A stretch of 5,832 bases of DNA from positions 1 through 5,832 of IMG/VR virus record IMGVR_UViG_2534681772_000006; one strand, given 5' to 3'. Numbering within the stretch: the stretch's first letter is position 1; every line of letters starts with the position of its first letter. Below, piece by piece: positions 4,915 to 5,019 of this stretch. Under the pieces are notes generated by a model that worked only from the letters and a program-made list of their open reading frames with translations, did no database searches and was not told the DNA's origin. This DNA is from a virus. Taxonomy: Duplodnaviria; Heunggongvirae; Uroviricota; Caudoviricetes. The translations under genes were made by a program, and so were the position numbers.

Positions 4915-5019
4915 TATTTGTGCTCCGTTTATCCGTTAAAAGGGATATCAGTTAAGTTATCCCGTGCAGGGTATAAGCCATTATCAAAGCCACTCTGTAG
5001 GGAATGGCTTTTGTAATAA

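What the first reader, a model, noticed from the sequence alone, without database searches (positions are those of the whole stretch)
4915..5019. Two stem-loops in the short intergenic region upstream of the small terminase gene
The 105-nt spacer between the Gp49-like gene and terS contains two inverted repeats. One is GGGATA-N10-TATCCC (about 4942..4963, with a GATATC palindrome at its 5' edge). The other is AAGCCATT-N17-AATGGCTT (4976..5008), with a TGGCTT direct repeat inside. The region immediately upstream of terS is where small-terminase recognition (pac/cos) sites or translational control structures are often found, so these are candidate cis elements.
Basis: seen in the sequence. Interest (0 to 1): 0.35.

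Follow-up and report, generated by a model that had tools for sequence, protein, structure and literature searches.

The report
Phage boundary hairpin plus HipB-like operators
The spacer upstream of this small-terminase gene is not a terminase-specific packaging signal. It is a copy of a widespread, unannotated phage module made of a conserved RNA hairpin followed by two DNA palindromes that match the binding sites of the bacterial antitoxin/repressor HipB.

Summary
All genes here are on the minus strand. The first inverted repeat (GGGATA-N10-TATCCC, 4942-4963) is real. The second is at 4975-4982/5003-5010 with a 20-nt gap, not 17, and it is not the conserved pairing.

The spacer is 99% identical to the phage Sf6 gene 66/gene 67 spacer. 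It occurs in 135 phage records and 2503 of 5426 complete E. coli genomes, never annotated there. It has at least 12 upstream and 5 downstream contexts and sits near several terS families, so it is not a terS-specific pac/cos site.

It has two parts:
- **SL1 (5021..4976, minus strand).** An 8 bp + 2x2 loop + 10 bp hairpin starting at the upstream stop codon. It has compensatory changes at 6 of 18 pairs and pairs better on the sense strand, so it most likely acts as RNA. It also occurs alone, or twice per phage.
- **Two 18-bp palindromes, TATCC-N8-GGATA (4930-4947 perfect; 4958-4975 one mismatch), 10 bp apart.** This is the consensus and spacing of the E. coli hipBA operators O2-O1. More than 120 viral contigs carry this tandem site between lysis and packaging genes.

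Which protein binds, and what either part does, is inferred only.

The parts
5020..5400 (-). Gp49 / Sf6 gene 66-like gene (126 aa). Its UAG stop (5022..5020) overlaps the base of SL1.
   Evidence: Pfam PF13876, E = 3e-35. 97% DNA identity to Sf6 gene 66.
4976..5021 (-). SL1, a 46-nt imperfect hairpin on the late-mRNA sense strand. Outer stem 5021..5014 with 4983..4976; 2x2 internal loop CA/GA at 5013..5012 and 4985..4984; inner stem 5011..5002 with 4995..4986; loop 5001..4996.
   Evidence: MFE fold. RNAalifold recovers it independently. In A3 it is 96% paired, 6/18 pairs have compensatory changes, and the covariation score is 0.287 against 0.177 for shuffles (0/500) and 0.06-0.12 for slid controls. 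In the wider set A4 it is 93% paired, score 0.359 against 0.237. Pairing is 93.3% on the sense strand and 80.4% on the antisense strand. The model R1 scores 70.2 bits here.
4975..5010 (.). It is an alternative pairing made possible by the repeated TGGCTT, and it is not conserved as a stem.
   Evidence: 0 compensatory changes, and broken in up to 17/51 copies.
4958..4975 (.). O_a, an 18-bp palindrome. Sense strand TATAC-CCTGCACG-GGATA; + strand TATCCCGTGCAGGGTATA. It matches TATCC-N8-GGATA at 9 of 10 positions.
   Evidence: the window has only two sites with at most 1 mismatch, against 0.13 expected. Same layout as hipBA O2.
4930..4947 (.). O_b, an 18-bp palindrome, TATCC-CTTTTAAC-GGATA on the sense strand, a perfect match to TATCC-N8-GGATA. 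It is 19/22 identical to E. coli hipBA operator O1 including flanks (my count).
   Evidence: The right half-site GGATA was not required by the search pattern, yet it is kept in all but 4 of about 140 copies. It is also kept where the N8 differs (CAACAAGC in L056/L117, CACAAGCG in L098).
4942..4963 (.). It is the right half-site of O_b, the 10-bp linker and the left half-site of O_a (+ strand view).
   Evidence: Invariant in 49/51 copies, with no covariation.
4923..4926 (-). GGAG Shine-Dalgarno of the downstream gene, 8 nt before the terS AUG. Homology to Sf6 and the other phages ends just after it.
   Evidence: Alignment A1.
4381..4914 (-). terS (Terminase_2 family, 177 aa), joined to the module at the ribosome-binding site. 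The same junction occurs in L055, L067 and E. coli TW10590.
   Evidence: (H146).

Best explanation
The spacer is one copy of a portable, composite non-coding module. The module marks the boundary between the lysis/accessory-gene region and the DNA-packaging genes in the late operon of lambdoid and related enterobacterial temperate phages. Here terS was recombined onto it at the ribosome-binding site.

Part 1, SL1. This hairpin begins at the stop codon of the upstream gene and is selected as a structure on the sense strand. It therefore most likely acts in the late mRNA. My best inference is that it is an intercistronic boundary hairpin. It would give the upstream accessory-gene message a protected or processed 3' end. 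It would also insulate the downstream ribosome-binding site from whichever cassette lies upstream. Its 8 bp + internal loop + 10 bp geometry is also what an RNase III site looks like.

Part 2, the tandem palindromes. Two TATCC-N8-GGATA sites lie 10 bp apart. Their half-sites stay fixed while the spacers vary. This is the signature of a DNA site for a dimeric helix-turn-helix protein. Consensus and phasing equal those of the hipBA O2-O1 operators, so the best candidate binder is host HipB (or HipA-HipB) or a protein with the same specificity. My inferred role is a protein-bound boundary or gate at the entry to the packaging genes.

Shown here: conservation, portability, SL1 covariation and strand bias, and the match of the palindromes to the HipB operator consensus and spacing.

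Inferred only: the identity of the binder, and the function of either part.
For: Portability and spread:
- 99% identity to the Sf6 38498-38600 spacer.
- 135 phage records, more than 120 IMG/VR contigs and 2503 of 5426 E. coli genomes, never annotated there.
- At least 12 upstream contexts, joined exactly at the 5' base of SL1. Often the join is at a stop codon or right after a canonical intrinsic terminator. There are at least 5 downstream contexts.

SL1:
- Compensatory changes and strand bias.
- It survives in Serratia, Shimwellia and other divergent phages. There, further compensatory changes occur in the inner stem, and the Shimwellia copy has a different outer-stem sequence that can still pair. 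Loops of the UNCG type (UUCG, UACG, UGCG, UCCG) occur in one clade.
- It occurs alone, 10-30 nt before the start codons of diverse genes including terS-like genes.
- A second copy lies after another accessory gene in Sf6 and in about 30 of 85 loci.

Palindromes:
- They are the only two sites with at most 1 mismatch in the window, against 0.13 expected.
- The K-12 hipBA promoter shows four TATCC-N8-GGATA operators. Both adjacent pairs are 10 bp apart.
- Published consensus and the O1O2 48-mer, Kd 0.6 nM (PMC3376134).
- Perfect tandem sites occur in more than 120 viral contigs, in 90 distinct versions, with free spacers and TATCCC/GGGATA half-sites.
- Inter-site gaps among 80 listed loci: N10 in 55, N9 in 12, N24 in 10.
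- Neighbouring genes are lysozyme, holin, spanins, HNH endonuclease, terS and terL.
- At free positions, hipBA O2-O1 is as similar to the phage sites (0.432) as the phage sites are to each other (0.426).
- The 3' half differs by 0.007 per site between copies, against 0.096 at third codon positions of the adjacent gene 67. Note that 19 of its 50 positions were fixed by the search pattern.
Against: - No binding or transcript data exist for any copy.
- No HipB homologue is encoded in the phage loci. The element is common in Salmonella phages, while none of the named entries among the top 120 HipB homologues is from Salmonella.
- P22 has lost the right half of O_b.
- O_a carries a fixed mismatch (TATAC).
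- No promoter-like site lies in the spacer for a repressor to control.
- The palindromes would also form RNA hairpins. An RNA-level role for the 3' half is therefore not excluded.
- SL1 could act as single-stranded DNA rather than RNA.
- Related phages recombine often, so near-identity of the 3' half among E. coli copies is partly shared descent.
Confidence: 0.6

Rival explanations
1. One reading: the spacer is the pac or cos-type recognition site of the small terminase, or part of it, like pacL of SPP1, which lies just upstream of its terS.
For: terS here belongs to the SPP1-like Terminase_2 family. From my own knowledge, not tested here, SPP1's pac site extends upstream of its terS gene. The module lies directly upstream of terS in the window, L055 and L067. 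The palindromes look like protein-binding sites.
Against: The same sequence, 99% identical, lies upstream of gene 67, with terS 0.4-1.5 kb away, in phages with at least four other terS types. These include Sf6_terminase, GP3_package, HK97-type with an HNH endonuclease, and Nu1-like. They use both cos and headful packaging. In HK97 it is about 800 bp from the genome end, where cos lies. Homology stops at the ribosome-binding site, so terS is the newcomer.
Confidence: 0.07
2. Transcription terminator(s). SL1 and/or GGGAUA..UAUCCC + UUUU would stop non-antiterminated transcription from prophage-expressed accessory genes, and Q-modified polymerase would read through.
For: The Ayreon record annotates SL1 as a 'terminator'. 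The position, after moron-like cassettes, is where terminators are expected. SL2 is followed by UUUU, and SL1 by UUAU or UUUA.
Against: Neither hairpin meets the terminator scan, which found none in the spacer. SL1 has an A/U-rich base and no U-run, and the second SL1 copies are followed by AACCG. The stem of SL2 is 6 bp with a 10-nt loop and only 4 U. Its U-tract is replaced in L056, L117, L098 and P22 while the half-sites persist. In several contexts a canonical strong terminator already sits immediately upstream of SL1.
Confidence: 0.12
3. A purely RNA-level regulatory leader. The 3' half would be a bistable RNA: SL2 against two small hairpins, the second lying 3 nt from the Shine-Dalgarno. 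Alternatively it could be a processed small RNA whose invariant single-stranded stretch is a seed controlling translation of the downstream gene or a trans target.
For: The two folds are nearly isoenergetic. GGA motifs lie next to the SD. The architecture of hairpin, single strand, hairpin and U4 resembles an sRNA. The sequence is strongly conserved.
Against: Across 90 or more divergent tandem sites the stems never covary. The same bases (TATCC/GGATA) are kept while the loops vary, and the fixed TATAC mismatch is uncompensated. This fits base-specific recognition of duplex DNA better than structure selection; compare SL1, which does covary. There is no Rfam match. Relatives lacking SL2 do without this part.
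Confidence: 0.15
4. A functionless 'boundary sequence': a stretch shared by many mosaic phages only because it serves as a homology patch for recombination between modules.
For: Flanks differ on both sides and the joints fall at the element's edges. Duplicated SL1 copies flank accessory cassettes. The Sf6 record annotates such 'bsq' boundary sequences elsewhere.
Against: Compensatory substitutions in SL1 and its strand bias need selection on structure. Half-site conservation with free spacers, and the fixed 10-bp phasing, need selection on a binding site. The 3' half evolves several times more slowly than neighbouring synonymous sites.
Confidence: 0.06

Closest known systems
E. coli hipBA promoter operators O1-O4 (HipB sites, TATCC-N8-GGATA)
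   Same: Identical half-sites and 8-bp spacer length. There are two sites 10 bp apart, as in O2-O1 and O4-O3. O_b is 19/22 identical to O1 including flanks (my count). At unconstrained positions, hipBA O2-O1 is no more different from the phage sites than the phage sites are from each other.
   Different: No hipB or hipA gene is nearby, and there is no recognisable promoter. The site lies inside a phage late operon between lysis and packaging genes. One half-site is degenerate (TATAC). Binding by HipB is untested.
Intercistronic RNase III processing hairpins of phage T7 mRNAs, and mRNA-stabilising intergenic hairpins such as REP elements (from my own knowledge of these systems)
   Same: SL1 is a repeated, strand-specific hairpin placed right after stop codons between genes of a long phage transcript. 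It has about 20 stacked base-pair lengths, interrupted by a conserved internal loop about 10 bp below the terminal loop.
   Different: There is no sequence similarity. Cleavage or stabilisation is untested. Nothing of the kind is annotated in the lambdoid records I opened.
'Boundary sequences' (bsq) annotated at mosaic joints of lambdoid phages such as Sf6
   Same: A conserved short sequence found at the joints between exchangeable gene modules.
   Different: This one is not among the annotated Sf6 bsq features. It also shows direct signs of selection for an RNA structure and a binding-site motif.
Prophage-encoded small RNAs of pathogenic E. coli (AgvB/AsxR, Pas sRNAs, lambda LPR1/PreS)
   Same: Short conserved non-coding elements of lambdoid prophages.
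   Different: These lie at other positions: the PR' moron site, near Q/holin, and between ea10 and ral. There is no Rfam match in the window.

Membership tests
Terminase recognition site (pac/cos) | Co-inherited with one terS family and positioned at or in the packaging genes | tested here: not met
   The same module occurs with at least 5 terS types, at 0 to about 1.5 kb from terS, in both cos and headful phages.
Terminase recognition site (pac/cos) | Packaging series or genome ends start there | not testable with these tools
   This needs virion read termini. In HK97 the genome ends are about 800 bp away.
Intrinsic (Rho-independent) terminator | G+C-rich stem, short loop, followed by a U-run | tested here: not met
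   The scan finds none in 4915-5019. SL1 has no U-run. SL2 has a 10-nt loop and 4 U, and the U-tract is lost in some copies.
HipB-type operator | 18-bp palindrome TATCC-N8-GGATA | tested here: met
   4930-4947 is perfect and 4958-4975 has one mismatch, against 0.13 expected. The consensus comes from PMC3376134 and from K-12 sequence.
HipB-type operator | Adjacent operators 10 bp apart (28 bp centre to centre), as in O2-O1 and O4-O3 | tested here: met
   N10 is the dominant gap in viral contigs, 55 of 80.
HipB-type operator | Lies in the promoter of a hipB/hipA-like operon | tested here: not met
   No HipB homologue is encoded in the loci, and the downstream genes vary. By contrast, the pattern-matching site in Pelistega (L142) does lie just upstream of an HTH gene followed by a HipA-N-like ORF. 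I judged both from their ORF translations, not from a profile search.
HipB-type operator | Bound by HipB or HipA-HipB | not testable with these tools
   Needs EMSA or ChIP.
Conserved structured RNA | Base pairs kept through compensatory changes; strand-specific | tested here: met
Met for SL1. Uninformative for SL2, which is invariant.
Any Rfam 15 family (including AgvB, AsxR, STnc100) | Covariance-model match | tested here: not met
   No hit in the spacer even at E <= 1.
RNase III processing site | About two helical turns of duplex, often with an internal loop at the cleavage position | tested here: inconclusive
   The geometry fits: 8 bp + 2x2 loop + 10 bp, and the loop is conserved while the flanking pairs covary. 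Cleavage cannot be tested here.

The most novel reading that the evidence does not exclude
Temperate enterobacterial phages carry a tandem HipB operator at the entry to their packaging genes in order to interact with the host HipBA toxin-antitoxin system. One possibility is a DNA decoy that, once amplified by phage replication, soaks up HipB or HipA-HipB complexes and so controls HipA-driven dormancy or abortive infection. Another is a HipB-dependent gate that couples packaging-gene expression to host physiological state. The adjoining SL1 hairpin family would be a previously unrecognised intercistronic RNA signal of lambdoid late operons.
Probability: 0.15. Interest if true: 0.85.

Novelty: new variant of a known kind. 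Interest (0 to 1): 0.55.

Why it matters
If correct, nearly half of sequenced E. coli genomes carry, unannotated, a compact module at the lysis/packaging boundary of their prophages. That module would combine a structured RNA signal with a binding site of the type used by a persistence-linked toxin-antitoxin repressor.

This would give a concrete and easily testable link between phage late gene organisation and a host regulator. Suitable tests are a gel shift with HipB, a ΔhipBA host, and half-site mutants.

It would also explain a recurrent joint of lambdoid mosaicism. And it warns annotators not to read inverted repeats upstream of terS as pac sites or terminators without comparative evidence.

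Tried and rejected
- **Rfam 15 at E <= 1.** Nothing in the spacer.
- **Promoter and terminator scans.** Nothing in the spacer.
- **Known phage sRNAs.** AgvB/AsxR lie at the PR' moron site. The Pas sRNAs lie near Q/holin or within structural operons, and no PasB sequence was available to compare. Lambda LPR1/PreS lies between ea10 and ral. All were rejected on position and the lack of an Rfam match.
- **Full-text search for the element's sequence.** No paper. Searches for lambdoid boundary sequences, RNase III in late operons, and HipB with phage gave nothing relevant.
- **K-12 prophages DLP12 and Qin, and phage lambda.** None carries the element, so K-12 transcript datasets cannot help.
- **Attenuator model built on SL1.** The 3' arm of SL1 has no alternative partner downstream, so I dropped it.
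- **Small ORF in the spacer.** Loop indels of 3 and 4 nt and the compensatory pattern argue against coding. The N-terminally extended DUF2560 gene calls come from other contexts or from read-through of variants.
- **A phage-encoded HipB.** phmmer over about 24,000 ORFs from 240 loci gave only weak generic HTH hits.
- **The search for related loci with Sf6 gene 67.** It returned only identical proteins and gave no diversity. Divergent DUF2560 homologues had to be fetched one by one.

Full report
**1. What is in the window**

All genes run on the minus strand:
- a Gp49/Sf6-gene-66-like gene, 5400..5020
- the 105-nt spacer, 5019..4915
- terS of the Terminase_2 family, 4914..4381
- terL, portal, a Mu-F-like head protein and a truncated DUF2213 protease

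Both ends of the window are cut by IS3-family sequence. There is an HTH_Tnp_1 ORF at 5481-5807 and an ALIL frameshift pseudoknot at 5762-5832. This is therefore a prophage remnant.

**2. The observation**

GGGATA (4942-4947) / TATCCC (4958-4963) with a 10-nt gap, and the GATATC palindrome, are exactly as described.

The second repeat, AAGCCATT/AATGGCTT, is real but sits at 4975-4982 and 5003-5010 with a 20-nt gap. The TGGCTT direct repeat is also real.

As sense-strand RNA the region folds far better than shuffles: -36.2 kcal/mol, z = -3.99, 0 of 200 shuffles as good. It uses a longer hairpin, SL1 (5021..4976), made of 8 bp, a 2x2 internal loop, 10 bp and a 6-nt loop. SL1 starts at the UAG stop codon of the upstream gene.

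**3. The spacer belongs to a widespread module, not to terS**

From 4923 upward the window is 97-99% identical to phage Sf6. In Sf6 the same spacer (38498-38600) separates gene 66 from gene 67 (DUF2560), and identity stops right after the GGAG Shine-Dalgarno.

How far it spreads:
- 135 phage records, including HK97, HK022, HK620, epsilon34, CUS-3 and Stx phages, and P22 in part.
- More than 120 IMG/VR contigs.
- 2503 of 5426 complete E. coli genomes, with up to 5 copies each and no RefSeq annotation.
- Careful Sf6 annotation also leaves it blank.

Across 139 copies there are at least 12 different upstream sequences. Each is joined exactly at the first base of SL1, often at a stop codon or just after a canonical intrinsic terminator.

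There are at least 5 downstream contexts:
- gene 67, about 81 copies
- a long non-coding stretch in lambda/Stx-like cos phages, about 52 copies
- the window-type terS junction, 3 copies
- a small 'MSDIYQI..' ORF, 3 copies
- the P22 arrangement, 2 copies

The terS genes near it belong to several unrelated families, and the phages use both cos and headful packaging. This rules out a terS-specific pac/cos site as the general function.

**4. SL1 is a selected structure**

On 51 distinct copies, SL1 is 96% paired and 6 of 18 pairs show compensatory double changes, in 88 cells. Its covariation score is 0.287. Shuffles give 0.177 (0 of 500 reach the observed value) and slid controls give 0.06-0.12. 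RNAalifold finds the same helix unaided.

Divergent relatives found through DUF2560 homologues and a second pattern scan keep SL1:
- They come from Serratia, Shimwellia and unnamed viral contigs.
- Their inner stems carry further compensatory changes.
- The Shimwellia copy has a different outer-stem sequence that can still pair.
- In one clade the loops are UUCG, UACG, UGCG and UCCG.

On this wider set SL1 is 93% paired, with a covariation score of 0.359 against 0.237 for shuffles.

G·U pairs make the helix strand-specific. Pairing is 93.3% on the sense strand and 80.4% on the antisense strand. Mean MFE is -21.4 against -16.6 kcal/mol. The 2x2 internal loop (CA/GA) is conserved while the pairs on either side of it covary.

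A covariance model of SL1 finds a second copy in Sf6, right after gene 65. It also finds second copies in about 30 of 85 loci, always directly after the stop codon of another accessory gene.

In relatives that lack the 3' half, SL1 sits 10-30 nt before the start codon of diverse genes, including terS-like genes.

SL1 is thus a repeated intercistronic hairpin of the lysis-to-packaging interval. It has no U-run and an A/U-rich base, so it is not a canonical terminator, even though one phage record labels it as one.

**5. The 3' half is a tandem HipB-type operator**

A match to the search pattern in Pelistega suis turned out to lie just upstream of an HTH gene that is followed by a HipA-N-like ORF. 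I judged both from their ORF translations, not from a profile search.

Reading the E. coli K-12 hipBA promoter then showed four TATCC-N8-GGATA operators, with both adjacent pairs 10 bp apart. This agrees with the published consensus and the O1O2 binding oligonucleotide (PMC3376134).

The window contains exactly this arrangement:
- O_b, 4930-4947, a perfect match
- O_a, 4958-4975, one mismatch
- 10 bp between them
- no other site with at most 1 mismatch in 5.8 kb, against 0.13 expected

O_b is 19/22 identical to hipBA O1 including flanks (my count).

The outer right half-site, GGATA, was not part of my search pattern. Even so, it is kept in all but 4 of about 140 copies, including copies whose 8-bp spacer differs.

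A scan for the perfect tandem site found more than 120 viral contigs with 90 distinct versions. In these the spacers vary freely and the half-sites are mostly TATCCC/GGGATA.

When the gap was left free from 1 to 30 nt, 55 of 80 listed loci had N10, 12 had N9 and 10 had N24.

The neighbouring genes are lysozyme, holin, spanins, HNH endonuclease, P27-type terS and terL. The tandem site is therefore a positional landmark of the lysis/packaging junction in many phage types. In about 15 of 100 such loci an SL1 directly abuts it.

At unconstrained positions, hipBA O2-O1 is as close to the phage sites (0.432) as they are to one another (0.426).

Fixed bases in the 'stems', free 'loops' and an uncompensated fixed mismatch (TATAC) point to base-specific recognition of duplex DNA by a dimeric protein. 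They do not point to selection for an RNA hairpin. SL1 next door behaves in the opposite way.

**6. What remains unknown**

- No HipB homologue is encoded in the phage loci.
- Named HipB orthologues come from chromosomes of E. coli, Shigella, Citrobacter, Enterobacter, Leclercia, Serratia and Raoultella. None of the named entries in the top 120 is from Salmonella, yet Salmonella phages carry the module.
- There is no promoter-like site in the spacer.

The binder, and the function of both parts, are therefore inferences. The explanation, its rivals and their weights are given in the fields above.

**7. Verdict**

The pac/cos reading is not supported.

What is really there is a conserved, portable and so far unannotated composite module. 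It consists of an RNA hairpin family followed by a tandem palindromic site of the HipB-operator type. I found no description of it in the records and papers I could search.

Noticed in passing
window 5481-5832 and 42-176: IS3-family sequence lies at both ends of the window. There is an HTH_Tnp_1 orfA-like ORF (5481-5807) with an ALIL frameshift pseudoknot (Rfam RF01497, 64.6 bits, cut by the window end). At 42-176 a transposase C-terminus-like ORF sits next to a truncated DUF2213 head-protease gene (58-498). The prophage is a remnant bounded by IS elements.
   Followed up: partly
L247 (Sf6) 37824-37876; also about 30 of 85 loci, e.g. L007 1506-1560: A second, slightly shorter SL1 copy (…GATAATGA AACCG…) lies directly after the stop codon of another accessory gene, 200-650 nt upstream of the main copy. 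Variable cassettes such as gene 66 are therefore bracketed by SL1 hairpins.
   Followed up: partly
L233, L237, L244, L232, L239: In one clade of SL1 copies without the operator half, the terminal loop is UUCG, UACG, UGCG or UCCG, with AUCG once. All four UNCG tetraloop variants are used.
   Followed up: no
L134, L135, L136, L144, L145 (genome-contig hits): MAGs labelled Cellvibrionaceae, Candidatus Nanosynbacter, Bacillota and Collinsella carry contigs whose ~114-nt element region is identical to copies seen in E. coli and its phages. This is most likely binning contamination.
   Followed up: no
L132 (Candidatus Berkiella MAG), about 1310-1345: A 21-bp perfect inverted repeat, TTATACCCTGTAGGGGATAAT-N6-ATTATCCCCTACAGGGTATAA. 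Its arm is 16/20 identical to the O_a region of the element. It may be a related operator-type site in an unrelated bacterium.
   Followed up: no
P0002, P0003, P0007: Some DUF2560 (gene 67) gene calls carry 25-49-aa N-terminal extensions. These read through variant upstream regions. In one of them (P0003) the extension reads through SL1 and then joins the gene 67 start, which suggests the operator half is missing. If so, this is a natural deletion variant worth examining.
   Followed up: no
L009 (P22) just downstream of the element: P22 keeps SL1 and O_a. In place of the right half of O_b it has a run of about 10 G (…TATCCCGTCTATGTGGGGGGGGGG…), and the 10-bp linker between the sites is entirely different.
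   Followed up: no
window 4381-4433: The terL ORF as listed (TTG start at 4433) overlaps the end of terS by 53 nt. The true terL start may be further in.
   Followed up: no
L002 (phage Huey) CDS0064 and CDS0066: The Gp49/gene-66-like protein and a neighbouring accessory gene are both annotated 'anti-CRISPR protein'. I did not check the basis for this.
   Followed up: no
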